NCBI RefSeq assembly: GCF_021028975.2
Contig: NC_059429.1
Location: 103,726,001-103,790,000 of the forward strand
Origin: Sphaerodactylus townsendi
Taxonomy: Eukaryota
Direction of reading: 5' to 3'
DNA length: 64,000 nt
Made by a program: the position numbers and the translations under genes. Below, one piece after another: positions 6,610 through 34,879 of the stretch. A model generated the notes under the pieces. That model was not told the origin of the DNA. It worked only from the letters and a program-made list of their open reading frames with translations, and did not search any database. Position 1 is the stretch's first letter; every line of letters begins with the position of its first letter.

Positions 6610-7389
6610 GTTTAGTAATTAACTTGGCAGCAAAGATCAGCATTTGGGGACATCTTGAAGCCACTCCATGAGTGAAAAAATGGGGGAATCATATGATCCA
6701 GAAAGTTTTCTTAAACAGCACTTGAGAGTTTTTCAAACGAAGGAGAAGTCTGCAAGGTGAGGAGGCTCAGGACAGGCTAGCTTCCTGGAAGTAGAAAAGA
6801 GCAGGCAGCAGGTGCATCCCCTGCTGCAAGCTTTGGAAGGACAAAAGTGGTAAAGTCACTTACTTTATTGCCCCAACAGAGGAAAACAGCAAGAAGGAGC
6901 TGAAAATGAAATGGGAGATGGAGAATGTGGAGAAGCAAAGAGAAGGGAAAGGGCAGAGATGTGAAAGGAAGAGGCAGAAACAGCAAAAGGATACATGCAC
7001 CAAAAGATGCTCAGGCATGCTCTCTTGATATAGGGAAAGGGCCAATCGGAAAAAAACACTGCTGCTGAAAAGAGAGCTTCAAATTCCTGGGACAGCCTGG
7101 CTGGGACACCAAACAGAGTGCAGCCCAAAGGATGCAGGGGAGGTCCAGCGGCTGCCTTGAGGCCTGGGATGACTGCATCACGGAAAGGGACCTGGGCAGG
7201 AGCCAAATGCCTGTGGGAAGGAGGGATGACGCAGGCGGGGAGGGGGCGTCCTGTGAGCAATGCACCGATGGAGAGAGGCAAGCGAGGGGATGGGGGAAAT
7301 GGATGGATGGGAGGCGCGTGGATGGAGTCATGGTCGGGTGGATGGAGGCAGGCAGGCAGGCAGGCAGGCAGGCGGTCGTCCGCTCTCAC

Positions 7390-7585
7390 CAGTGTCCTGC
7401 TCTGCTAGGAAAGCATCTTCCTCCTTCCTGGAGCGCAGGCAGCTCTCGGCCGCGCTGGCGCTGCCCGCCTCCTCCTCGGGCAAGCGGGGGAAGCTTGTGA
7501 TGCTCATGTAGTCCACGGGCGAGTAGGCGCCCAAGCTGCTCTGCTGGCTCGCCTCCTTCTCGGCTGCACCTGCAGCCGCCGCCAT
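7390..7585 (-). CDS. GGT7: Gamma-glutamyltransferase 7 (glutathione hydrolase 7), coding exon 1; the rest lies beyond the left end of the window
   Basis: MAAAAGAAEKEASQQSSLGAYSPVDYMSITSFPRLPEEE...RKEEDAFLAEQDT matches the GGT7 N-terminus (LGAYSPVDYMSITSFPRLPEDE...RKDEDAFLGDPDT); phase-1 GTGAG donor at 7389. Confidence 0.95.
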
Positions 7586-15337: not shown

Positions 15338-15751
15338 ATGGAATTTTCACCAGAGAAGAAAGAGGCCTTCATTGTGACTCAAGAGATCTATGCAGGCAGA
15401 AAGAGGATCCCTCTGGGGTCTATCGGATGCTTCCTTAAGGGAAAGCACAACATGGGCCGCATTGTTGACCGAAAATCTAGGCCTGTCATAACCCTGATAA
15501 GCAGCCACATAAAACCACTTAGCCACCATCAGGCTGCTCTTTTGCTCTCCATTAAGAGCCCACAAAAGCGATATAGCCTCTTTTGCAGTGAGCAGCACTT
15601 CACCTCCATTTGCTTCCTAAAAATCCATGATGTCGTACAGCTGAGATGTGGCCGGGTGTTGACAGTGGGCATTGTGAGAGGCTTCTGGGAACGGCTCAGG
15701 AATCCTGGCAACGAAGAGCTGAAAATGGTTCTCATTGAGGTGGAGCTGCTG
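15338..15751 (+). CDS. CYLD-like deubiquitinase, coding exon 1 (N-terminus, degenerate first CAP-Gly region)
   Basis: Acceptor tttttgcag at 15323, Kozak ccaacATGg; IPLGSIG / AALLLSIKSPQKRYSLF / VGIVR / VELL| parallel CYLD VPKGSIG / TELLLAITNCEERFSLF / PGVVR / VELL|; GTAAGG donor, phase 0. Confidence 0.85.
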
Positions 15752-16453
15752 GTAAGGGCGTGGTCATACTTTGTTCAGGGTATTCTGGTCAGTGTTCTGG
15801 GCCTTCCAGTAACAGGAAGCTTCTGGTAGAGTGCCTTGACCTTCCCCATTCCTCTCTCCAACCGCGTATGCATAATAATGCACTTTCAGTCCACTTTCAA
15901 TGCACTTTGCAGCTGGATTTTGCTGTTCGGAATAGCAGAATCCACTTGCAAACAATTGTGAAAGTGGATTGGAAGTGCATTATTCTGCATGTACGGAAGA
16001 GACTTTAATCTCTGGGGTTTCTGCTTCTTCCAGTTTAGCTAACATAGTGCAGTGGTTAAGAGCAGTGCACTCTAACCAGGAGAACCAGGTTTGATTCTCC
16101 ACTCTTCCACATGAAGCCTGCGGAGTGACCTTGGACTAGTCACAGTGCTCTCAGAACTCTCTCAGCCCCACCTACCTCTCAAGGTGCCTGTTGTTGGGAG
16201 AGGAAGGCAATTGTGAGCTGCTTTGAGACTCCTTGCAGGAGAGAAAAGCAAATTATAAAAACCAGTTCTTTTTCTCACCTGTGTGTCCCTCATCCTTTAC
16301 TGCACACATCTATTCTAAAATATGTCTGCAAATAGCACGGCTCTTTAAATACAACATTGCTGTTGTTGCGACAAGTCTGCAGTATAGATTTTTGCTTGAC
16401 ACAAATGCTTTACTTTCAACATTAGTCATTCTCTCTGCTTCTCACTGCATCAG

Positions 16454-16586
16454 GATCCCAGGATTATTGCTCTCAGTAACAGCTTCTCCAGACTGAAGGT
16501 TGATGCGAGTAAGATCATCACAGTTAGCTCCAGTATCACCATTTCTCCCTGCCACAAAGAAATTGAGCAAAGATGCCATCGGAAGG
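16454..16586 (+). CDS. CYLD-like coding exon 2 (linker)
   Basis: cag|GAT...AAG G|gtaaga; open frame DPRIIALSNSFSRLKVDASKIITVSSSITISPCHKEIEQRCHRK; phase 0 to phase 1 exactly bridges the neighbouring exons; no recognisable homology. Confidence 0.7.
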
Positions 16587-16932
16587 GTAAGAGGCACCAA
16601 AGGGCCCAACCATTTGACTGGATAACATTTCAGCTTTGTACCTCTCTCCCTGCTATGGGAATCTGTAGGACTGCTATAATATTTTATATACAACATAATA
16701 TAATGATTTGAAACGATTATCTTTTATTTCAGAACGTTACATTTTTTCACAGTCATCTTATTGATAAAAACTTGTGCGCAGCTTCTGTCTCTTGGAGTTT
16801 TGAGTGATGCAGCTTTAAGTGTTTGTAGTAGGGATGGGTATCAACTGAAACCCAACAATAGCTTTGATAAGAGAATAAAAATGGCTTGGCTCCTGCAGTG
16901 AATTTTTATTGGCTGAAGTGATTTCTGTCAAT

Positions 16933-17538
16933 GGCCGATTCCCCACGGTCAATTAATCATGTGATACTCACACGAAATATCAAGGATTCAGGAAGAACTC
17001 CCCGCTGCCTGATCGATGAGCAAGGATTCATCCCGGTTCTGGCGCTCATTCTCCCCCTTATCCCATGTCTTTGCCAAACCTGTTTGAAAGTACTACTTTT
17101 TCAAAAAAACACGTCTTCGATCCAGTTTGGAGGGGAGGATCGGGGGTCTAATCTTGGTTCAAATTTCCCGCCGTGGAGCGTGACACAAATGCCTTACAGC
17201 TAATCAGTGCACATGGTGCTGTTCTCGCAAGAGCACGAGAGAACGAGAACCAACCAAAAACTTGGGCGGGGGAGACGTGATGATGTTCTGACATCATAAC
17301 GTCAGCACGTTTTTGCAGGAGAAAAAAGAAGGTCCCGCCCCAACACGGCACAACAGAAGAGACCCGCCAAGCCGATCGTGTGGTAGTGGGGATTGTTACA
17401 ATTCTTGAATCCGAGATAGGCCTAGATGTCTTCACTGGAAACATGCTGTGGTGAGCAGGTTGAAACCTCGATGAAAAGGTGCAGTTTATTTTCAAACTTG
17501 GTTTGATCTAGATTGAATTTCCCGGTGGGGATTCGGCC
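16933..17538. mobile_element. Non-autonomous DNA transposon (PIF/Harbinger-like)
   Basis: TIR GGCCGATTCCCCAC / GTGGGGATTCGGCC flanked by 3-bp repeat AAT; CpG-rich interior. Confidence 0.65.
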
Positions 17539-17649
17539 AATCCAGTCCAGTGAAGCAGTCACTTTAAGTATCTAGTTATTATAGAGAAGTTGGATTGCTC
17601 CTTCTTTCAATAGGGCTGTAGTCCAATGAAGCACATACTGTTTTTCTAG

Positions 17650-17791
17650 AGGGCAGATACTTAAACCAGAACTGGGCAGAAAATAACACTGAGGCAGCTT
17701 GGAAACAGGATGTTTTGCTGAAGATGGAAGGTGCTATGAAGGGAATCCAAGGACATTGCAATTCCTGTTACCTAGACACAACCCTTTTCAG
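17650..17791 (+). CDS. CYLD-like coding exon 3 (USP Cys box)
   Basis: KMEGAMKGIQGHCNSCYLDTTLFS vs CYLD [20 protein letters not shown]; catalytic Cys TGT at 17766-17768; tttttctag acceptor, gtaggt donor. Confidence 0.95.
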
Positions 17792-17808
17792 GTAGGTGGT
17801 GTGCAAGT

Positions 17809-17911
17809 TGGTTGTTGTGAGTTTTCTGGGCTGTGTGGTGGTGGTCTAGTAGTTTTTGCTCCTAACGTTTTGCCTGCATCTATGGCTGGCATCTTCAGAG
17901 GTATGACACAG
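17809..17911 (-). mobile_element. Penelope-like terminus with decayed hammerhead motif
   Basis: Minus strand reads cctctgaagatgccagccatagatgcaggcaaaacgttagg. Confidence 0.7.
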
Positions 17912-18286
17912 TCCAATTCTAGATTGTGCCAATGCTAAATTGAGCCCAGTTATGTGGGGTATGTGTTTTTTCTCCACATTGTCTCTAACAGTGCTGCTGT
18001 TTTCAAAACCAATGTCTTCCTTTTCCTTTCCTATGTCTGCTGCTGCCTCAAAAGCAATGCTTTGGCCATTTTGGAATGTTCATTTTCCTCATCCCCTGCA
18101 AAATGGCTAACTGTAGTGGTGTTCTGTGTTCTGGCCTTGCTACTGCCTGAGAGCCATTATTATGTAGTCCAGTGCATAAGCTGGGGTGAATTAATAGCAG
18201 GCTGCTGTGGCAACCATTTTGTGCTTAATTGTGCTTAATTCTGTTTTATACATCAGTGTACATATTCTTTGTGTGTTTCTTTGCAG

Positions 18287-18394
18287 TTTATTCAGTTTTT
18301 CTTCTGCCTTGGATAGCATTCTCGATTCTGCTGAGGTACATGATGCAACAGCACAGCAAATACTGAGGGAGCAGATTGTGGAACCGTTGAGACG
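18287..18394 (+). CDS. CYLD-like coding exon 4
   Basis: LFSFSSALDSILDSAEVHDATAQQILREQIVEPLR vs CYLD LFAFSSVLDTVLL...QELLRTEIVNPLR; ttgcag/gtgagt, phase 2-2. Confidence 0.95.
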
Positions 18395-21300
18395 GTGAGT
18401 TCCACCACATTTCTAAAGTATCTGTACTGTGTGGATGAATTGTATTCTTAATGCTGTTGGGTTTTCTGTATTGGAGTATTGTGTATTATGTACTGCATGG
18501 ACATCAGTAGAGGCACTGCATGAACATCAGTAGAGGCACTTTGACTTTTGGGAAAAGAAGGTGAAAATTACACAATACCATTTAACAAATAAACAATGTT
18601 CTACAGAAAGGAGAAAAAGGGGGTTGTGTTCCAGCAATGGGAGCACATTTACTGTACAATTTAAGGGCCAGACTGAACATTACAATTTAATGTTCCCTGA
18701 AGCCTTGCAGCAGCTGTGGTGAATGGCTTTTAAAAAAGAAAAAAAGGAGACACCCCCCCCTCAAGGACTCAGAACAGAGCTAGGGGGCACCTTCCCCCCT
18801 TCTGTTTTTCTGCACAAAATCTGCACTGAGAAGAGTTATTTACCCAATCTTCCTGCTCCACATGGAATATCTTCTCACAAGGAACAGCAAAATCAAGGAA
18901 ATAACTCTCCCCAGAGTGGTTTTTATGTGGAAAACAGCTGAGGAGGGGGGAGGGAACCCTTTCATCTCCCCATGGTGCCAATCCAGACAGGTTCTCCTTT
19001 TAAAAAAAGCTGTTCCCACAGCTGCTATGTGGCTGCAGGTAATATGAATTGGACTAAGGAACCCAGACCCAAATCTCTAAAACAGCAGCGTTTAGTTTAG
19101 CCCTAAGTCTGTTTAAACCAGATCAGCCAATACTGCATGTCAGCATATGGAAGAATGATGAGTCCTGAATATTCTGGAAGTAGAAGCTCAAACAGAACAG
19201 TCTTGCTGAGTCAGACTCAAAAAATATGATCCAATCTGTTGAAATGCCATGGTTTGGGCACACTGACTTGGATCCAGAGAGCACAAGAGGAACTCAGCCA
19301 GGCTATTCAAAATTGCTCATAACCCTTCTCTGCTGCAGGCCCCTGATGATGCTTGGGGCCTCCAAAAACAGCACTGGGTGAAACATGGTGGTCTGCAGTA
19401 GAAGGGAGGTGGATAAAATGTTTCCTCCTGTGGGTGGAAAATCAGGATTTGGATCCAAGCCATTGAAGCAGTTCATTCAGCCTATTACAGCCACTGAAAG
19501 AGATCATCTTATGGATTGTATAAAATATACACAGAACATGAAAGCTGTCCAATGGACAGAGACAACTAATATACAGGAAGGTGTATAGCATCAATCAGAA
19601 TGCCAACCTGATTAATTAGCACGATCATGACAGTTTCCCAAATTTCTCATCTGTGTTTATGAGCCAAGATGAACTATAATCATTTAGAAATCTCCTGTGC
19701 TGTGAGATACCACAGTGTTTTATAGATTAATGTATCAACTAGTTGTTTGAAATCGGTGGAGTTAATTGACTAAAAAGTATTAATCAGTCAAAGCTTCCAG
19801 AAGACTGTTTTGCGATGAAGTAGCATATTTCATTATGTTGTAAGCATAAATTTTCCAGCTCACTCAGGGTAGAAATCATACTTTTATCTCTCAGCTCCAT
19901 AGGCATTCATTTCCACTGGCAGATTTTAAAGATTTCTTAGTTTTACTGAATGACTTGACTTATCAGCAAGATTTAGACTAATATTCAATGGCTCTTCTAA
20001 CTACTCTTTGTGTCCCAGTTCCTCAAGAAATCGGAAGTTGCTGTGTCAGTCTAATTGTCAGAAGAGTAGGAGTTGCTATATTAGCTACATTTTCCCCACA
20101 CATATTCCAAAGCACTCAAGGCAGTATACATCATTTTCTCTTCCTCCATTTTATCCTTGCAACAACCACCCTGCGAAGTAGGTTAAGCTGAAGGAGATCG
20201 CTCACCGCAGGCTTCCTGACAAAGCAGTGATTTGAACTTAGATCTCTCAGATCCTAGTCTGATAGCCTAATCACAACTAGGGTTGTCACTCTCCAGGTGG
20301 TAAGAAAGTACACAAAATTACACTGAAAATGGCTCACAGCAATAAAGTATTACTCAGAAGGAAAACAATTCTCAATGTATTATTTGATAAACTCATGAAC
20401 TGCACCATAGTGCCTAACAATTGAATATCATTGTATAAATCACCATAGTGTTTTACAATAAAGAATCACTGAAAATATATACAGGTACATTTATCTTCAA
20501 CCTACTGTCTACTAAACTAACCAGAACCCTGATTGTGAAATACTTCAAAAGGCTAGTGGAACATGTGAAACCTTTTAGTAATCTTTAGGGTCCATAAACC
20601 TTCTAAGTTGTTCCAAGTCAAAGTGGAATCAACTCTATGGGACCATCCTGGATAGTGGTCTTGTGCAAAGGCTCTTACTGCTGTCCTGGTGAATCTCCAG
20701 GTGATGGCTGGAGATCTCCTGGGATTACAACTGATCACCAGCAGAGATTAGGTCAACTGGATGAGATTGCTGCTTTGGAAGGTGAACTCTATGGCATTAA
20801 ATCCCACTGAAGTCCATCTCCTCCTCAAACTCTCTCAGACTCCACCCCCACCCCAATCTCCAGGTATTTCCCAACCCAGAGCTGGCAACCATAACCACAA
20901 CCCCACACTAGCTCTAACCAAGAATTAGAAGACTGTTAGCTTAGCAACAGAGAAGTGGAACAGCAGTAAAGTGTCTGCCCTTGCAATAGCCCAGGAGCAG
21001 CATAATAATAATAATTGTGCAACAGCTAGCTGTAATTGACTCATAATGAGATTTTCAAGGCAAGAGGAGAGCAGATGTGGTTACCTTTGCCTTCTTCTGC
21101 ATAGCAACCCTGGACCCTCTTGCTGTTCTTCCATTCAAATACTAACCATGGCCAACCCTGCTTAGCTTCCAAGCTCTAATATGATCAGACTGGTCAAGGT
21201 ATTCAGGCTGCTACAGCATATTATAGCAGTTCCCAAAGACTGGCTTGGGCTGTGTAGCTCCAGAAACTGAAAAACTTTTCTCTCTTTCTCTGGCCCAATA

Positions 21301-21688
21301 CCAGTTGCTTTTCCTCCCCACCCTGCCCCAACCATTCCAGGTACCTGTAATCCTGCACTCCTAGGAGACCTGCACTGCCTGTTATTTCTTTTTAAATTTA
21401 TTATTAGATTTTTAGACCGCTCTCCCCTGTTACAACAGTATCAGCTGTTTAAAAGATTTTATTTATGTAAAATCAAAAATAAACAAGGCACCCTACAATA
21501 AAACCCAGTGGAGGGTAGAACAGTGTAAATTATAATAACAATACTTGCATAATCCTGTTAAATAAAAGGGGGGGGGAGAGAGGGGAAGGGAAGGGAGGTC
21601 AGCTGAGATGGATAAATACCATAGCTGGATTCATTACTAATCACTTATAATCATAACAATATATAATCATGGAAATATTGATTGTCAG

Positions 21689-21768
21689 GCATGGCTATGT
21701 GGGAGCTGAGAACGTGATGAATTTAAGGAGATTGTTGCGATCTGACAGCTTCATTACAGAAGAGAAAG
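21689..21768 (+). CDS. CYLD-like coding exon 5
   Basis: HGYVGAENVMNLRRLLRSDSFITEEK vs CYLD YGYVCATKIMKLRKIL...GFTSEEK; gtcag/gtgagt. Confidence 0.93.
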
Positions 21769-21844
21769 GTGAGTGACAAGAGTCTGGCCTCTTTACTGGG
21801 TAGGTTACACTGCACTCCCCCCCCCACCCCGCAAAGTGCAGAAT

Positions 21845-22155
21845 ATTGCTATGGAATATGCTGCCACAGGAGGTGGTGATGGCCACTAACCTGGATAGCT
21901 TTAAAAAGGGCTTGGACAGATTTATGGAGGAGAAGTCGATCTATGGCTACCAATCTTGATCCTCCTTGATCTGAGATTTCAAATGCCTTAGCAGACCAGG
22001 TGCTCAGGAGCAGCAGCAGCAGCAGAAGGCCATTGCTTTCACCTCCTGCATGTGAGCTCCCAAAGGCACCTGGTGGGCCACTGCGAGTAGCAGAGTGCTG
22101 GACTAGATGGACTCTGGTCTGATCCAGCAGGCTAGTTTTTATGTTCTTATGTTAT
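21845..22155 (+). mobile_element. CR1 LINE 3' end
   Basis: WNMLPQEVVMATNLDSFKKGLDRFM-type ORF2 C-terminus and (ttcttatg)n tail. Confidence 0.85.
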
Positions 22156-22733
22156 TCTGAGCAGTGAGGAATTCCAAAGGTAATTCTTATCTGAGTTGAT
22201 TCCTTTTGGAAGGAAGGTTGAGCAGTCCTTTATAATTTTTGTACCATTTGTTTTAATTGCAGATACATTAGTGGAACACAAGTAGAATCGTTATTGGGAG
22301 GAGTGGGGGGAGTGTCGCATCTTTCAAGCCCTGATGGGTGCTTGGACAGAGCCATTTCCCCACCATTAAGGATAACTGAAGTAGCATTACGAAGAAATGT
22401 TACCATTCCTTTTGTCATGGGCAGTAGTTTTCCCCAGGATTCTATTTTTGGCCAATCCCATAAAAAAGAATAACCCACAATAACCAAAATACAGTACCTG
22501 TAACATAACTTTGTGGTTTCATTGTTCAAATCAGTTCTCAGATATTTGTTGAAGTGTCCTTATCTTGTAAGGTAGGTCAGCTTTGCCAGTGGAGTTGAAT
22601 ATGAGTGGCTTGCATATGACCACTTAGTGAGTTTGTAACAAAGATTTGACCTCTCAGTCACAACTCATGCTCAGCCACTATGCTGCAACAGCTTCAGGCT
22701 TTTTGCTACTCTAATGGTTGATCTGGTTTACAG

Positions 22734-22800
22734 ATCCAGAGGAATTCCTGAATGTCCTTCTAGGAGAGGTCTTGGCTATAGAGCCCTTGATCAGAATCAG
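22734..22800 (+). CDS. CYLD-like coding exon 6
   Basis: DPEEFLNVLLGEVLAIEPLIRIR vs CYLD [23 protein letters not shown]; tacag/gtaaga. Confidence 0.95.
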
Positions 22801-24341
22801 GTAAGAATTTGATGTGTTGATTGTTTTCTCTCATCCATTTGAGTGCCATTCTTGGGCCTACATGCAGTGTCAGACTTCAAGGCTTAGGGCTGAAAACTCT
22901 TACAAATAAAAAAAAAGATTCAGTGCCTAGGCAGGTCCTAGAGGTAGAGCCCATCAGTTTTTGACAAGTTGGGTGGTGGGGCCCTGAGCAGAGCACAAAA
23001 AAACCCCTGTTCATTCATTCACTTAAAGTTTAGCTTTTTAAAATGCTGAGAAGGGGGACTACCTTACCCCTTGCAGTTGAGGCAACTTTGAGAAAAAACA
23101 AAAATATCCTGCCCAATTTCTTTCAAGAGTAACCCTAATACTGACCATGAATAAAAAGAAGCAATGGAACATTGGATATGATGGGCCGATTCACAATTTG
23201 TCTTGAGATGGACTTTCAGGATGGACTTTCAGACAGACATACTTTGGGGAGATCCATACTTGGAATTAATACGCAAGCATACAGGGACTTGGTGTGGGTC
23301 AGGACCATGACACTCAGGGAGCTTTCCCAGTCAGGAGCAGCCTCTAAGCATTTGCTTTGTTATCAAAATTTACACATACAGCTGGTTACATTAGTTTCCT
23401 CAAAGAGGCAAATAACATTTCTTGGGGCCATTTCTGGTAAAGAAAATGGCATGGAGGCAGAAAGAGGCATAAGCCCCCTCTCCCCATGTGCTGCAGTCAT
23501 GATACAACTTAAGGGCAACAGGCATATTTGTATACGATCCTGTTTGCAGAGTAACGAGCAGAATGTAGCTTTGTGTGCAACTTTATAGGAACAGTTATCT
23601 AGCTAAAGAACAACCTTTTTAGCTCAGAAATCATTGGAGAGCTTTACTTAAACTGAGAGAGAAACAGACTGTATACATAAACAAAGTACCACATATATAT
23701 CGATACATTCACAGTTCATAGTTCGGTTACAATTTCAAACATAGTCTATATTAAACATTTCAGTCAGAGCTTTTTGGTCTTTCCTCAGCAAGAGTCAGGG
23801 AGCAACTGTTTCCAACTGTCACCTTTAGAATGTTCATAGAGATCTCCCAGAATTCCCTGCTGCTGCATGCAAGCAAGGCTGTAAAATCCAACACCAATGT
23901 GAGCCATCTCATGCCAGGAATTAACTTCTGAGCAGGGAACTCCCAGCCCTCATCTGTCTACAGTCTGCATAAGGCATATGTGAACTGAGTGACAGGTGAA
24001 TTGGCCTGAGGTGAGTTCACTGACTAGATGGGGATAGACTGGCCTAAAGGCTCTCCACTTCCTGGTCCAAAAGGCACATACTAGGATGGAAGGAGATGCT
24101 CACAGCTCCTCTGGGCTACACTTTGAAAACAGCTACCTTCAGAGAAAAGTCTCCTTGCCCTTTTCTCTTCAAATGCAATGGATATATTCTCGTGGCACAG
24201 CTAGGTTACTTTTGGCATGAAGAAGCTGAACTCAGAACTGCTTTCTTTATATCTCAGTGACAATGATACTAGTTGATACTAGTTGATGCACTTGTCTGGA
24301 GGAAAGGACATGTATGTTTCTAAACTTCTTTGCATTCCTAG

Positions 24342-24471
24342 GGCTGGCAACGAAGCACTCGAGTATAATTGTTATCAAATACTTGTGGAGAAAGACGGTA
24401 TGGTCCAAATGCCCACCGTGCAGCAATTACTAGAAGAATCACTTCTCTCCTATGACCTGAAGTTCGCTGAG
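24342..24471 (+). CDS. CYLD-like coding exon 7
   Basis: AGNEALEYNCYQILVEKDGMVQMPTVQQLLEESLLSYDLKFAE vs CYLD [33 protein letters not shown]. Confidence 0.95.
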
Positions 24472-24934
24472 GTGGGTAACTGAGATACATCATGTACAAT
24501 CTTTTTTTGCAGACAACAACTTGCCAGCCTCTTGTGGGGGCGGGAGCGGGGGGAGGGGGGGTAGCAGAGATCCGGAATAACAACTGATCTTCAAACCACA
24601 GGAAACAAATCCCTTGGAGAAATTGACTCCTTTGAAGGGTGGACAAGTCCCTCAAACCCTGCTGTGGCTAGCCTCCTTTGCCAAATCTCCAGGAATTTCC
24701 TAAACTGGAGTTGGCAACCTTACTCTCCAAATCTCCAACAATTACTTAGGGAAAACCAGCTCACTCTCTTTCCCCCACTCCTTCATTTAGTCTGGCTGTG
24801 CAGCCTGTTTCCACTCCCTTCAACGAAGTCAGAAACATACCAGAAAGCATTCAGTACCAGGCTTGCTAACCTCCAGGTACAGACTTCACATGGATGTAAA
24901 TAAGACACAAAATATTAAAACTTTGTTGAAGCAA

Positions 24935-25075
24935 TTTTATTTGTATGCTTACAGTCTTCTTGGTAATTTAGATGGGAAACAGACCTGTAATATTAATATA
25001 TTATTTGTATGTTTATTTATTTGTATGTTTGCAGTCTTCTTGGTAATTTAGATGGGAAAACAGACCTGTAATATT
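24935..25075. repeat. Local tandem duplication (~60-70 bp unit)
   Basis: cagtcttcttggtaatttagatgggaaa(a)cagacctgtaatatt occurs twice. Confidence 0.85.
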
Positions 25076-25491
25076 TACAGAGTTAATATTAGTGATACAA
25101 TTACAAGTTGAATCAAAACATTTTTCCAAGGTAACATGTTCCAGAGAACTCTGAGCTCTTGGTGCCAAGTAGCATGGTTCCCTACCGATTTAAGCAAATG
25201 CTGCCTCGCTGCTATGCCTCTACCAACAGCTGTCTAAAGCCCATTGTATTGTACTTTAGCACAACAGACTTTACTGCTAGTTACACATAATTTCTGTAGC
25301 ACTTTTAATATGCAATGTGCTTTGTAGCATTAATTTTTTAGTCTATGTCCCTGTAACTTGCCATTATCCAAAGTGTACAGATGGAAAACTGAAGCTAAGA
25401 TATTCTTTTCATTTGTAGTTTGCCCTCGCGGAGAACCCATGGCTGAGCTCAGATTTGAATCCCAATCCTTGTGCCAGGATGTACTACATTT

Positions 25492-25495
<4 letters not shown>

Positions 25496-25571
<76 letters not shown>
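25496..25571. repeat. Head-to-head (TG)n / (CA)n microsatellite
   Basis: (tg)n run, then tatatacacata, then (ca)n run. Confidence 0.95.
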
Positions 25572-26375
25572 GCTGCCACCAGGAATTTAATTCCAAATCC
25601 CTTTATACTTTCCCCTGAAATAGTGTGTCTGAGCTTTATAGCAGTTTCGAAGATCTATGTAGTCCTAAGGAAATACAAGTGTGGGACTCCAGGTTACATT
25701 AAACAAATTTAAATTTTTATTTACATATGTTATGTAGCTTAAATGTACAAAACTTGTACAAAAATGTACAAAAAATAAAACATACTGAGACAACAACCTC
25801 TGCAGAGGTGACTTTTCACTTTACATCAATTCACTCTCACTCCTTTACATCTTTGAGATCCTAACAGGATTTGACTCCTTTTCTAATCTCTCACTCCAGC
25901 ATAGATTGACTCAGTCTTCAGTATGGAATAATGTCTCTCTCTCCTCACTCACTCTCTCATTTCAGCACATAATACTTTCTTTCTCTCCAGTTCTGTACAC
26001 ATTCTGGTTCATTTTAGCTCAGACTGATCCTGTCAGTCTACAGCAGAGACTGCCATCTCTCTCTCAAAGTTAGCACAAACTTTCTGGCTCTCCCCCTCGG
26101 TTAAGCACAGAATCTTCCTCAGTCACTCTCCAGTGCCATCCACTCACTTCTCTCTCATCCCATTTTACTCCCCTTTCTTCTACAACTTGCGTCTCAACTT
26201 GCACATAACAGTTTTAAAAGTTACGGTCCTCTAGGCTAGAGAGGAGCATTTCTAAGATATACAGAAATATCAACAAATAACCATTCTGCAGCCCTTGTTT
26301 GTTGTCCAGTCTTTTTGAGCCAACTTCTGCAACAACCATTGGCAGTCACTCTTCAAAAAGTCTCTTCTCTTTCAG

Positions 26376-26484
26376 ATCCCTTCATGCCTTATCTTACAGC
26401 TGCCAAGGTTTGGAAAGGGGTTCAAAACATTCCCATCAGTGTATCCTTCTCTAGAGCTTGACCTGACAGACTTGGTGGACCAAG
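26376..26484 (+). CDS. CYLD-like coding exon 8
   Basis: IPSCLILQLPRFGKGFKTFPSVYPSLELDLTDLVDQ vs CYLD [36 protein letters not shown]. Confidence 0.95.
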
Positions 26485-26633
26485 GTAAGCAAGCTTGTAA
26501 GCATAGCCAAAATTTTATGCTAGTTTAATCTAAGAGTGCTCCATTGGCTTTTTATCAAAGTAAAATGTTGGTACTACAGCAAAGCAGTCATCCTTGAAGG
26601 CAGTAACAAACCTGGGTCCTTGTATTATTGTAG

Positions 26634-26749
26634 CTTCTCAGACTTGTTGTGCATGTAGTGGGCAAGCACCGTATGAATGCTCATGGTGCCACTTGGATTC
26701 CTTCCTGAACCCAAGCCACTTGAGACCATTGAGAGGAATTGCTAAGAAG
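26634..26749 (+). CDS. CYLD-like coding exon 9 (B-box insertion, degenerate)
   Basis: SQTCCACSGQAPYECSWCHLDSFLNPSHLRPLRGIAKK vs CYLD [39 protein letters not shown]; tgtag/gtagga, phase 1-0. Confidence 0.9.
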
Positions 26750-27322
26750 GTAGGAACACCATACAGTTCACCTGAGGGTGGGAATTGCAGGGGGAAAGGG
26801 AGGGCTCTGGAAAGGCATGAGGAAAGGTCACTTGCAGATATGGAGCCAGCCAAATGGCTAATTTCATCTTAGCCTCTCTAAGGCTCCAGATGCAGTTGGC
26901 TTGTTGTCTGGCAGACAAAGAATGATTAGGTACCTACCATTTTCATACAAAAGGCAGCTGCTGTTCTCAGTAGGAAATGGCATCAGTCACCTGCTAAGTT
27001 TCATATAGCTGTTACAAGTGTAGGAATCCCACCAGGAAAAGGGTACAGCCCTATTCATACAGCCACGGGGGTTGAGCAGATATGAGTTCGAACAGAGGGT
27101 GAATCCCCGTTCTACCATGAAAATGGCTGGGTGACCTTGGGCCAATTACTCTCAGTTTAACCTGCCTCATAAGGTGACTGTTGTAAGGATAAAATGGGAG
27201 AGAACAATGTTGTAAAGAACTTCGGGTCCCCATAAGGGACAAATAAAGCTTCTACAATTCTTAAATTTCACATCCCCCCCCCCCCTCGAAACTCCTGACT
27301 GTTGTCTCCTCATTTCTTCCAG

Positions 27323-27512
27323 GTACCTCCTCATCAGCCCAGACAGAAGTATTCCTGCATAGGACAGGAACTCAATAGCTCCTCTACTAAGTCGCAAATA
27401 TTGGAGTTGTTTGCAGTTTTGTGCATAGAGAGCAACCATTATGTGGCTTTTGTTAGATATGGAGCTTCCAGACAATCCTGGCTTTTCTTTGACAGCATGG
27501 CTGGCCGATTAG
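27323..27512 (+). CDS. CYLD-like coding exon 10 (His box)
   Basis: [36 protein letters not shown] vs [40 protein letters not shown]; His at 27437-27439, Asp at 27491-27493. Confidence 0.96.
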
Positions 27513-28627
27513 GTAAGGCAGCATCTTGGGGCTGGTTTTTAACAGGTCCAAAGAGCTTATGTTTTTGCAGGTTATAAAACGAAACCAACTGGCACTGACC
27601 ACTGGATATTTAATTCAGATTTGCGCCCCAGGACTCTGCCACCAGCCTTAGTTCTCCAGAATTTCACTTCAATCATTAGATGAGTCTCTCTAGCAGTGCT
27701 TGAGAACAAACATGATTAGTGCTTTACTGTAAACAAGTTTCCTCCACATTCTCAATGCAATTTAATAAAAAGAAATACAAAAGGTGAAAGGAAATAGAAA
27801 TGTAGTTGGAATACGCACACTTCAGGACAAGAAGAGTAAACTTAGACTGGGGCTTTTGGGAGAACCAGGATGGGTTCCCACACTGTATGACCTTTATGAA
27901 CAGTATAGGCTTAGTTTAGTCTGTGCTACTTCACTCACCTCCACCCTGCAAGCAGGCACAGGCAACAGGAAACCCCAACACAGACTTTACTGGCTACACA
28001 GGAAATCCAAGGTTTTTTTGATGAGTGACATTCTCCCTGCCTCCTCACACCCTTCAAGGATGAAGTAGGGATATTTCTCTAAGGACCTACGAATGCATCC
28101 AGCCACGTCTTGGGGGGATTCATATAGAACTACATTCTGATTAACAAGGGACAATCCGAGCCTTGGAGCAGCTTGTTTATGAAGTACATCCTGAATGTTT
28201 GAGCAATATTTTGCAGCATGGGAAACTTATGGAACGCTCCATTAGTGTCTAGCTCCTATTGGTATAATGCCTGAGGATGCCAAAGGAGGTACATTCCTTT
28301 ATGCTTAGCCTGGCATTAATTTATTCAGGCAAACCAGGGGTCTTCAAGTTTTCCTTTAATCAGAGCTACTTCTGAATAATGAAAATAGCCTGAGCTATGC
28401 CCCAAAGCATGTTACCAAGTTTTGTTCTGTCCTAGCAATAGGGGAGACACTTGATCTAGACTTAATTTAACTGGGTGTTTTCTAGTTTTCCTATTTAAAT
28501 TAACCCTAATATTTTCATCCAAAGCACCGATAAACCTTACTCAGCTCCTTAGTAAATGGATGTTTCTCAGCATAACAATGACCTTTTCATTATTCATACC
28601 TTTGTAACTGATCGTGTATTTCTTTAG

Positions 28628-28824
28628 AGAAAGAGAATGGATCACACATCCCCTTGGTAAAGGCATGTCCACAGCTTGGACACTATCTGGCAATGGCACC
28701 AGAGGACATTTCTGCTGTGGATATCAAGCAAATGGATCAATTTTCCAGAAGACTCTTTTGTGATTCGTATACATTCATGTACCAACGACCAAAATTCAGC
28801 TCTTACAGATGTGAATTCAGATAG
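28628..28824 (+). CDS. CYLD-like last coding exon
   Basis: ENGSHIPLVKACPQLGHYLAM...RRLFCDSYTFMYQRPKFSSYRCEFR* vs CYLD [21 protein letters not shown]...[21 protein letters not shown]; TAG at 28822-28824. Confidence 0.95.
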
Positions 28825-32755: not shown

Positions 32756-33672
32756 CTCTATCAGGAAGATAACCCCTGAAAACCTCACTGGAATTGGGAC
32801 CACTATTCCCGTGCATTTCAATGTGACATGTATAGGAGATTTTCCTGGTGGCCTGAAGCCCATATGGCAGACAGACAAATCGACAAGAAGAGCTACGGCA
32901 AGCACCACCTAGAAATCCTGAAACATTCTGCTTTGTAGAACTGTAAAGCTGGCTAAGTTGGATACATGAAATGCATGCAAGGTCTCTGGATACATGAAAT
33001 GCATGCTACTTTGTTTATTAACTACAGTTAGCACTCTCTACTGATTACTACTTATAACAACATGTTGCTAGAAATGGGGAAAAACACGAATTTCCAAGAT
33101 ATCAGCATAACTGCTTAGCCTAAGCTACCATTTTGAGCACAAACGTGTACGGAGTTGAAAAGTATAAAGACCTTAGGTATCAGAGTGACAGTCATCCAAG
33201 ATTTCAATTTTGCTCTTCAGACACAAGTGGTTGAATCCAAACTACACTGGCAATTTCCACTGATTCTTCTTCTTCATTACAGGCACCCCCCCTCCCCAAA
33301 TGTGTCATTCCTCAAGATTCCCTATCCTCCAGGAACTACATTTAATTGAGATCATGGGCAGAAGTTGAAGATGGGAAGCAGGAAAGTTCCATTCTGTCAC
33401 TGGAAAATTTAGGTTGGATCTGACCCTGCTTTTAATGGTTACAAATGCTACAAGAACCCACTGACATTGTGACTTCCCTGAGCAAAAAATTAGTCACCTT
33501 TTCATGCTTCTGTTATGCAAAATCCAACGCAAGAAGACCGCAGACTCTCACAATTAAAAAGTTGCTAACTTGCAGCAATTTACATAGAGGATTTCTATCA
33601 CCTTACCCCTTCAAGTGTTTAATGTACTTATTGCTACAAATGATACCTTATTTTAAAAAAGAAAAAACTTAC

Positions 33673-33776
33673 ATTGCTATGCCTATAAATCCCTTTAGCG
33701 GAACAATGCCCCAGATCACTCCCAAAATAACAGCAATGATCTGCCGGAACCAATAAATCACATCTAGAAACTCATC
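33673..33776 (-). CDS. RAB5IF: RAB5IF coding exon 2
   Basis: DEFLDVIYWFRQIIAVILGVIWGIVPLKGFIGIA; ctgcag/gtaag. Confidence 0.97.
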
Positions 33777-34714
33777 CTGCAGAGGAAAGACAAGTTCAAA
33801 ATTTGTTATTTCTGAATACGCCTATAATTCATACACATACCTTCCCAAGTGATTCCTGTGTGAACAGAAAAAAACAGGTTTTGACAATACCTGGACTCCC
33901 TTGTCTTCAGGGGATAGTTATTACAGACATCCCTTCCATATTATGACTTTCCCCACTGCAGTTCTGATATATCGCAGGTCAATTTAGGAAATTAAATGGG
34001 AATTTGGGGGGGAGTTATGTGGAAGCCACAGATGACGCACAAAGGCCCCTCTTCGTGGGGCACATTTCTAGCCGGGGGGGGGGGGTGTGAGCGGGCGGGG
34101 GGAGGGAGGGCGAGCGAGCGAGCAAGTCGGCGGGGGAGCGGACGGGGGGGCGAGCGAGTGGGGGGGGTGTGAGCCAAATGGCTCTTTGGTGGTGAGCCAA
34201 ATTTGGTAGTGAGCCAAATGGCTCTTTGAGGGGAAAAGTTTCCCGACCCCTCATTACTCAGTGTTACGGTGTGTGTTTTAGTTGGTTATAACAGGTTGAG
34301 CCTAGTTATTGTATTACATTTTAAAAGAAAAACTAACCAGCTATTCCCACAGAACTTCCCTCCATTAAGAAGTCCGTTCTTGAGGCCCTGACGAAGGTAA
34401 GAGTGACTCTCATTACCCCTCGATCTTGTTGGTCTCTAAAGCACTACTGTACTCAACTGTGGACCAACCCGGCTGCGCTCTGGGACTTCCTTAACAAGAC
34501 AGACTCCCAAGTCTCCTCCCTTCGGAGACTTCATCAAATGTCAGGACGGCCATGTGGCCTTACAATCCCTCCACTCAGCCGTCCCTTCTCCCCTTGTGGG
34601 GCGCCCAGGGCTACCACTCCCACCGCGCCCCTTCCCGATCGTGGCCCTCTCTCTGCGGAGGTCGCCGCAGGGCGAAATCTCCCCTTGCTAAATACGTCCC
34701 GGGCCCGGCCTCAC

Positions 34715-34858
34715 CTTGTCCTCCCAGGCGGAGTCGCTCCGCAGCGCCTTGCTCCACAGAGAGCCCCGCAGGACGCCGCCGTTGGCCACCGGGTGGTGCT
34801 GCTGCTGCTGCTGCTGCGGGTGCGACGTCTGATCCTCCTTCCGCCGGCCGCCGCTCAT
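34715..34858 (-). CDS. RAB5IF: RAB5IF coding exon 1
   Basis: MSGGRRKEDQTSHPQQQQQQHHPVANGGVLRGSLWSKALRSDSAWEDK vs human MSGGRRKEEPPQPQLANGALKVSVWSKVLRSDAAWEDK; GTGAG donor; four exons total 420 nt = 139 aa. Confidence 0.96.
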
Positions 34859-34879
34859 CGTCCCCCACCAGGCCCCGAA

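What the first reader, a model, noticed from the sequence alone, without database searches (positions are those of the whole stretch)
18309..18335. Natural Asp at the CYLD Leu622-equivalent position (SPATA2/LUBAC interface)
Ungapped counting from the catalytic Cys (CYLD C601) aligns VLDTVL-L622-RP with ALDSIL-D-SA; the Asp codon is 18324-18326. From my recall of the literature, L622D is the engineered CYLD substitution that abolishes SPATA2 binding and hence recruitment to LUBAC. The following loop is also about 5 aa shorter. Inference: the paralogue is uncoupled from SPATA2-LUBAC signalling complexes.
Basis: partly seen in the sequence, partly recalled or inferred. Interest (0 to 1): 0.72.

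Follow-up and report, generated by a model that had tools for sequence, protein, structure and literature searches.

The report
Stripped-down lizard copy of CYLD
A gecko gene encodes an intact but pared-down sister copy of the immune deubiquitinase CYLD, and its aspartate does match a known binding-dead laboratory mutant, but the site varies freely among relatives, so the match is likely coincidence in a protein that had probably already lost its SPATA2 link through older changes.

Summary
Codon 18324-18326 is Asp243 of an intact 11-exon, 561-aa CYLD-like gene, 21 residues after the catalytic Cys. Human numbering (L622) and the L622D literature check out. The loop after it is 5 residues shorter. 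But among 73 orthologues from chimaera to lizards the site holds His 32, Arg 13, Gln 12, Tyr 6, Asn 4, Asp 2 and Leu 1. Asp occurs in two geckos only; a third has Asn and 6 of 6 other lizards have Tyr. The Asp is therefore likely drift, not a conserved switch. The gene is one of four ancient CYLD-family genes in this genome; true CYLD, with Leu622 and a full B-box, lies elsewhere. Uncoupling from SPATA2 remains likely (about 0.7, untested), for older reasons: a mostly polar residue and short loop across the clade, no detectable CAP-Gly domain in tetrapods, and loss of the second half of the B-box in 8 of 8 lizard sequences against 0 of 64 others. A B-box deletion cripples SPATA2 binding in human CYLD. 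Modest interest.

The parts
18324..18326 (+). Asp243 codon (GAT), positional equivalent of human CYLD Leu622
18324..18353 (+). 10-residue loop after the helix, 5 residues shorter than in CYLD; the short form is shared by the orthologous clade
   Evidence: 10 residues in 60 of 72 rows parsed
15338..15751 (+). Coding exon 1 (138 aa): homologue of the CYLD N-terminus and first half of a degenerate CAP-Gly1-like barrel; no Pfam hit
   Evidence: (E 1.7e-5 to cod CYLD; same exon end as the CYLD gene on C14)
16454..16586 (+). Coding exon 2: end of the N-terminal barrel and linker
17650..17791 (+). Coding exon 3 with the Cys box; catalytic Cys222 at 17766-17768
18287..18394 (+). Coding exon 4, holding the site in question
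21689..21768 (+). Coding exon 5 (USP core; 4 residues shorter than CYLD)
22734..22800 (+). Coding exon 6 (USP core)
24342..24471 (+). Coding exon 7 (USP core)
26376..26484 (+). Coding exon 8 (USP core)
26634..26749 (+). Coding exon 9: B-box remnant; first four Cys kept, second CxxC replaced, Ile790 equivalent is Ala
27323..27512 (+). Coding exon 10: rest of the B-box remnant without the CYLD His pattern; catalytic His472 (27437-27439) and Asp490 (27491-27493)
28628..28824 (+). Coding exon 11 to the stop codon

Best explanation
The gene is the gecko member of an ancient CYLD sister lineage with an intact catalytic triad, and its Asp at the Leu622 position is likely neutral drift on a surface that had probably stopped binding SPATA2 long before. 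Shown: across the lineage the site is variable and mostly polar and the following loop is short; tetrapod members have no detectable CAP-Gly domain; lizard members lack the second half of the B-box. Inferred, by analogy with human CYLD mutants: without a folded B-box the enzyme would be monomeric and bind SPATA2 weakly at best, so it would not be recruited to LUBAC, and without CAP-Gly3 it would have low activity on Lys63 chains. It would act as a free-standing, modest deubiquitinase placed by its conserved N-terminal barrel module, while the intact CYLD gene on another contig keeps the LUBAC role.
For: Site states in 73 orthologues: His 32, Arg 13, Gln 12, Tyr 6, Asn 4, Asp 2, Cys, Leu, Ser, Lys 1 each; entropy rank 49 of 347. 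His, Tyr, Asp and Asn codons differ at the first base only (genetic code). Clade support 99.7/100, spanning chimaera to lizards (69 rows). Full B-box pattern in 64 of 64 non-squamate rows and 0 of 8 squamate rows that reach it. The B-box remnant diverges faster among lizards (37-65% identity) than the USP core (77-87%) or N-terminus (71-82%). CAP_GLY in 45 of 73 members, the number of non-tetrapod rows, and absent from 5 of 5 tetrapod proteins scanned singly. Human delta-B-box is monomeric and binds SPATA2 only weakly (PMC5031558). CAP-Gly3 is needed for full activity (PMC8511506 passages). The genome keeps CYLD with Leu622 and a full B-box and SPATA2 with the Tyr-Thr pair and a DLY motif.
Against: No binding or activity was measured. 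Human I790D, a monomer, still binds SPATA2 at 518 nM, so loss of dimerisation alone need not abolish binding. His is at this position in the two closest outgroup proteins and in 10 of 73 distant relatives, so the ancestral His may have allowed binding, and Tyr in other lizards is hydrophobic. Arg641 of the conserved CYLD surface is kept here. Only three geckos were sampled, so a gecko-wide role for Asp or Asn is not excluded. Three tetrapod rows are N-terminally short and say nothing on CAP-Gly loss.
Confidence: 0.68

Rival explanations
1. One reading: the Asp is itself the switch, a natural L622D that uncouples the paralogue from SPATA2-LUBAC.
For: Register and numbering are right. L622D is the published binding-dead mutant. 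Three of three geckos carry a small polar or acidic residue (Asp, Asp, Asn) where other lizards carry Tyr.
Against: Asp is in 2 of 73 orthologues. The B-box defect is shared by all sampled lizards and so predates the Asp. Leu is absent from 72 of 73 rows, so there was no Leu-type contact to switch off in geckos.
Confidence: 0.1
2. The paralogue still binds a SPATA2-family adaptor (SPATA2L or the third PUB-like protein in this genome) through a remodelled surface, so the human mutant does not predict its behaviour.
For: The genome has three SPATA2_PUB-like genes. The helix before the site and the Leu-Arg after the loop are conserved across the clade (entropy 0.1-0.5 at Asp110, Leu127, Arg128 of P0010). 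Many distant CYLD relatives lack Leu622.
Against: Human SPATA2L co-purification also depended on the B-box (PMC5031558 passage). The conserved helix residues may be structural. The loop columns are among the most variable of the domain.
Confidence: 0.15
3. The gene is decaying: accessory domains are lost because the whole protein is under relaxed selection on the way to loss.
For: Long squamate stem branch, 0.41 substitutions per site. Successive domain loss. No turtle, crocodilian, bird, snake or mammal row falls in this clade among the best 120 of 2191 hits (a word-limited search).
Against: Open frame over 11 exons with 10 of 10 GT-AG introns and a full triad. USP core 77-87% and N-terminus 71-82% identical across lizard families, well above the linker at 39-55%.
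Confidence: 0.07

Closest known systems
Human CYLD USP domain (PDB 2VHF) and its L622D, I790D and delta-B-box variants (PMC5031558)
   Same: USP fold (Foldseek E 6e-27; VIA Z 30.6, rmsd 5.0, 293 aligned, next chain Z 18.4, on the Paroedura orthologue model); Cys-His-Asp triad; Asp at the 622 position as in L622D.
   Different: A separate paralogue; loop after 622 five residues shorter and a second four-residue deletion; half a B-box; no CAP-Gly hit and no CYLD phospho-region; residues after the catalytic Asp changed (Asp-Arg in 44 of 44 fish rows, 0 of 24 tetrapod rows).
Database proteins labelled 'ubiquitin carboxyl-terminal hydrolase CYLD-like' in lizards and amphibians (P0010, P0002, P0003, P0012-P0030)
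   Same: P0010, labelled Sphaerodactylus townsendi, is 100% identical over residues 130-561. The gene is already annotated by similarity.
   Different: P0010 starts at an internal Met and omits 129 N-terminal residues that the window and other lizards encode. No functional study appeared in my searches.
CYLDL of Vlasschaert et al. 2017 (PMC5381560)
   Same: A CYLD duplicate of non-mammalian vertebrates reported as deleted in all mammals (passages).
   Different: The passages I saw name one duplicate; this genome has three besides CYLD. I could not tell which one the paper means; its figure was not visible to me.

Membership tests
CYLD-type USP deubiquitinase | Catalytic Cys, His and Asp in CYLD register | tested here: met
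   Cys222, His472, Asp490 align with 2VHF
CYLD-type USP deubiquitinase | USP fold closest to CYLD among solved structures | tested here: met
   AlphaFold2 model of orthologue P0002 (mean pLDDT 66.6): best Foldseek and VIA hits are CYLD chains
CYLD-type USP deubiquitinase | Complete B-box inserted in the USP domain | tested here: not met
   First CxxC-x7-CxxC kept; second CxxC and His pattern absent in 8 of 8 squamate rows, present in 64 of 64 others
CYLD-type USP deubiquitinase | N-terminal CAP-Gly domains (three in CYLD) | tested here: not met
   No PF01302 hit in exon 1, P0010, P0002 or P0003; only about 200 residues precede the USP domain. A degenerate CAP-Gly1-like barrel is likely
CYLD-type USP deubiquitinase | Preference for Met1 and Lys63 chains | not testable with these tools
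   Needs a DUB assay; the loop after the catalytic Asp keeps its length but not its sequence
CYLD orthologues (SPATA2-LUBAC-coupled) | Falls in the CYLD clade | tested here: not met
   Groups with the Phe-bearing paralogue (97.9/100), apart from CYLD and the C15 gene (99.2/100); true CYLD is on C14
CYLD orthologues (SPATA2-LUBAC-coupled) | Leu at position 622 | tested here: not met
   Asp here; Leu in 1 of 73 clade rows
CYLD orthologues (SPATA2-LUBAC-coupled) | Binds the SPATA2 PUB domain | not tested
   No complex prediction was obtained and no experiment exists in the papers searched
CYLDL (Vlasschaert et al. 2017) | The vertebrate CYLD duplicate that mammals lost | tested here: inconclusive
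   Three candidate paralogues in this genome; no mammalian row in this clade, but the paper's passages do not identify which duplicate is meant

The most novel reading that the evidence does not exclude
Jawed vertebrates kept four CYLD ohnologues, and this one was dismantled in steps into a LUBAC-independent minimal CYLD: SPATA2 surface remodelled early, CAP-Gly3 lost and the proximal-ubiquitin loop rewritten in tetrapods, B-box broken in lizards. The lizard enzyme is then a natural monomeric deubiquitinase with its own chain preference and an N-terminal targeting module, a ready-made series for separating the SPATA2-dependent and independent functions of CYLD.
Probability: 0.35. Interest if true: 0.55.

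Novelty: new variant of a known kind. Interest (0 to 1): 0.3.

Why it matters
The Asp alone matters little: it is a recent change at a variable site. The lineage is more useful. Human work needed engineered mutants (L622D, delta-B-box, CAP-Gly3 loss) to separate CYLD catalysis from its recruitment; lizards appear to carry a gene with natural counterparts of all three, kept alongside normal CYLD, with fish and amphibian orthologues as intermediates. If uncoupling is confirmed, the series would show what a CYLD-type enzyme does away from LUBAC and which surface features SPATA2 needs. No CYLD-SPATA2 complex structure turned up in the PDB sequence search (one search lists four CYLD chains only) or in the search listing.

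Tried and rejected
Expression: no RNA holder was listed, so splicing and expression are unconfirmed and the gene model rests on splice signals, the open frame and identity to P0010. A computed ancestral state for the site was not obtained; 'ancestral His' is read by eye from tip states. Single-sequence fold of exon 1 was unusable (mean pLDDT 33); the N-terminal fold rests on the P0002 model, whose residues 79-157 match Tudor, chromo-barrel and BAH chains only weakly (Z 7.4-7.8), and no CAP-Gly chain was listed among the 50 rows. Low pLDDT over the B-box remnant in that model (383-443) fits an unfolded remnant but could come from the mixed alignment, so I give it little weight. Assembly error at the codon: rejected (orthologue P0002 also has Asp). 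Pseudogene: rejected. Pairwise alignment as the test of homology: rejected as ambiguous. Rows dropped: 61 of 265 CYLD-family proteins lacked a whole USP domain by my filter and were left out of the tree; five of them (P0001, P0005, P0007, P0035, P0082) were added back to the 73-row alignment by similarity; P0008 (lacks the exon) and P0054 (aberrant) were not. Literature searches for the paralogues and for L622 found one evolutionary paper and one biochemical paper. Results for the other surface mutants in Figure S3D of PMC5031558 (E635K, R641E, W736A) are in a gel image I could not read. Earlier-findings look-ups returned nothing.

Full report
The gene. The finding lies in exon 4 of an 11-exon gene on the + strand, 15338-28824. 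The joined frame is 561 codons without an internal stop, 10 of 10 introns are GT-AG, and the catalytic Cys222, His472 and Asp490 are present. Residues 130-561 are 100% identical to a database protein labelled CYLD-like from the gecko Sphaerodactylus townsendi (P0010), which supports the exon model independently of my splice choices. Pfam gives UCH only. An AlphaFold2 model of the Paroedura orthologue, which also has the Asp, matches CYLD chains best (Foldseek E 2.5e-29; VIA Z 30.6 against 18.4 for the next chain).

The observation. Codon 18324-18326 is GAT, 21 residues after the catalytic Cys. In 2VHF the Cys is residue 601 and the residue 21 on is Leu622, taking the construct start of 583 from the paper. 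PMC5031558 (I saw passages, section 10 and supplement passages) reports Leu622 as essential for SPATA2 binding, L622D as not activated by SPATA2, and only weak SPR binding for L622D and for delta-B-box. It was the only paper returned for these terms. The 5-residue shortening is real (spacing 41 against 46). Because the deletion begins at this site, pairwise alignments leave L622 opposite a gap, and the window protein alone cannot decide. The orthologues can: 52 of 64 amphibian and fish rows keep the Pro found two residues after L622, and 55 of 60 rows with a 10-residue loop score best with the first loop residue on L622. Four DNA contig sets show no other letter at the codon.

Family context. 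A search of the genome with the His-box exon finds four CYLD-family genes. A tree of 204 of 265 retrieved proteins plus the four genes gives four vertebrate clades. A 44-sequence IQ-TREE run supports the window clade at 99.7/100, its pairing with a Phe-bearing paralogue at 97.9/100, and CYLD with the C15 gene at 99.2/100. The window clade runs from chimaera, sharks and rays through ray-finned fish and lungfish to amphibians and lizards. The gene sits between a gamma-glutamyltransferase-family gene and an EMC6/Rab5ip-family exon at 33636-33761, on the same contig as SPATA2, while CYLD shares C14 with two other SPATA2-family genes. Origin in the vertebrate genome duplications is my inference from this pattern; PMC5381560 (passages) names one such duplicate, CYLDL, lost in mammals.

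In 73 clade members the site holds His 32, Arg 13, Gln 12, Tyr 6, Asn 4, Asp 2, and Cys, Leu, Ser, Lys once each. The two Asp rows are this protein and Paroedura; Euleptes, the third gecko, has Asn; 6 of 6 other lizards have Tyr. The column is 49th most variable of 347. His, Tyr, Asp and Asn codons differ only at the first base, so these states interconvert by single changes. Leu is confined mostly to CYLD (3 of 3) and the C15 clade (3 of 4); the sister clade has Phe in 52 of 59 rows; 73 unnamed distant relatives have Leu 4 times. So the Asp is not a conserved feature, and the likeness to the laboratory mutant is probably chance.

What is patterned. Three other changes follow the tree. The short loop is clade-wide (10 residues in 60 and 9 in 9 of 72 rows parsed). 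CAP_GLY is found in 45 of 73 members, the number of non-tetrapod rows, and the precomputed domains and single scans place the hits in fish, sharks and lungfish and none in tetrapods; the shark domain matches the exons just before the USP domain of CYLD, so it is likely CAP-Gly3. The full B-box pattern is present in 64 of 64 non-squamate rows and 0 of 8 squamate rows: the first four Cys remain and the second CxxC and His pattern are gone. From recall, B-box zinc sites are cross-braced, so losing the second half would damage both. The remnant also evolves faster than the flanking domains among lizards. In addition the Asp-Arg pair after the catalytic Asp is kept in 44 of 44 fish rows and 0 of 24 tetrapod rows; I take this stretch, from recall, to be the loop that contacts the proximal ubiquitin (described in PMC5135002, passages).

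How it likely works. Shown: intact triad, conserved USP core and N-terminal module, missing accessory elements. Inferred from human CYLD: a broken B-box would leave a monomer with weak or no SPATA2 binding; lack of CAP-Gly3 would lower activity, most on Lys63 chains, and remove the NEMO site (PMC8511506, passages). The protein would then be a free-standing deubiquitinase placed by its N-terminal barrel module, which is 71-82% identical across lizards and folds with high confidence in the model. The canonical axis is intact in the same genome: CYLD on C14 has Leu622 and a full B-box, and SPATA2 keeps the Tyr-Thr pair and a DLY motif. I put uncoupling from SPATA2 at about 0.7 and the Asp as its cause at about 0.1.

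Results against this reading. Monomeric human I790D still binds at 518 nM. His occurs at the site in the two nearest outgroup proteins, so a non-Leu residue may be compatible with binding. Arg641 is conserved. The genome has a third PUB-like gene that could serve a paralogue. Only three geckos were seen. Nothing here measures binding, activity or expression.

Verdict. Observation confirmed; interpretation partly supported, for reasons other than the one given. The gene is annotated in databases by similarity; its stepwise loss of recruitment modules did not appear in my paper searches, which cover open-access PubMed Central and bioRxiv only. New variant of a known kind, interest 0.3.

Noticed in passing
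G000:C14:290046-292290 (L025, L027): A third SPATA2_PUB-like gene besides SPATA2 (C5) and a SPATA2L-like gene (C14:25.04 Mb): 524-aa open exon, 33% identical to SPATA2 over the PUB part, with a DLY-like motif. A possible adaptor for one of the CYLD paralogues.
   Followed up: partly
G000:C15:34065744-34084946 and G000:C962:200991-223233: Two further multi-exon CYLD paralogues, each with the B-box Cys pairs and CAP-Gly-like exons; the C15 gene keeps Leu and the long loop at the 622 site, the C962 gene has Phe and a loop 4 residues shorter.
   Followed up: partly
window 15338-15724: The database protein P0010 starts at Met130 and omits 129 residues that are in frame here and conserved in other lizards and amphibians; the annotation is likely truncated.
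   Followed up: yes
window 7386-7585 (-) and 33636-34862 (-): Flanking genes: a first exon that I recall as GGT7-like, with G_glu_transpept exons just upstream of the window, and an EMC6/Rab5ip-family gene that I recall as RAB5IF-like. The gene names come from memory.
   Followed up: partly
clade distribution: No turtle, crocodilian, bird, snake or mammal protein falls in this clade among the best 120 of 2191 hits, although weaker paralogue hits from birds are listed; suggests repeated loss in amniotes, but the search is word- and length-limited.
   Followed up: no
window 17800-17912: Fragment of a very high-copy interspersed repeat just inside intron 3.
   Followed up: no
window 18394: One contig set from a second organism code has G>A at the last base of exon 4, which would turn the junction Arg into Gln, the residue in most other lizard orthologues.
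   Followed up: no
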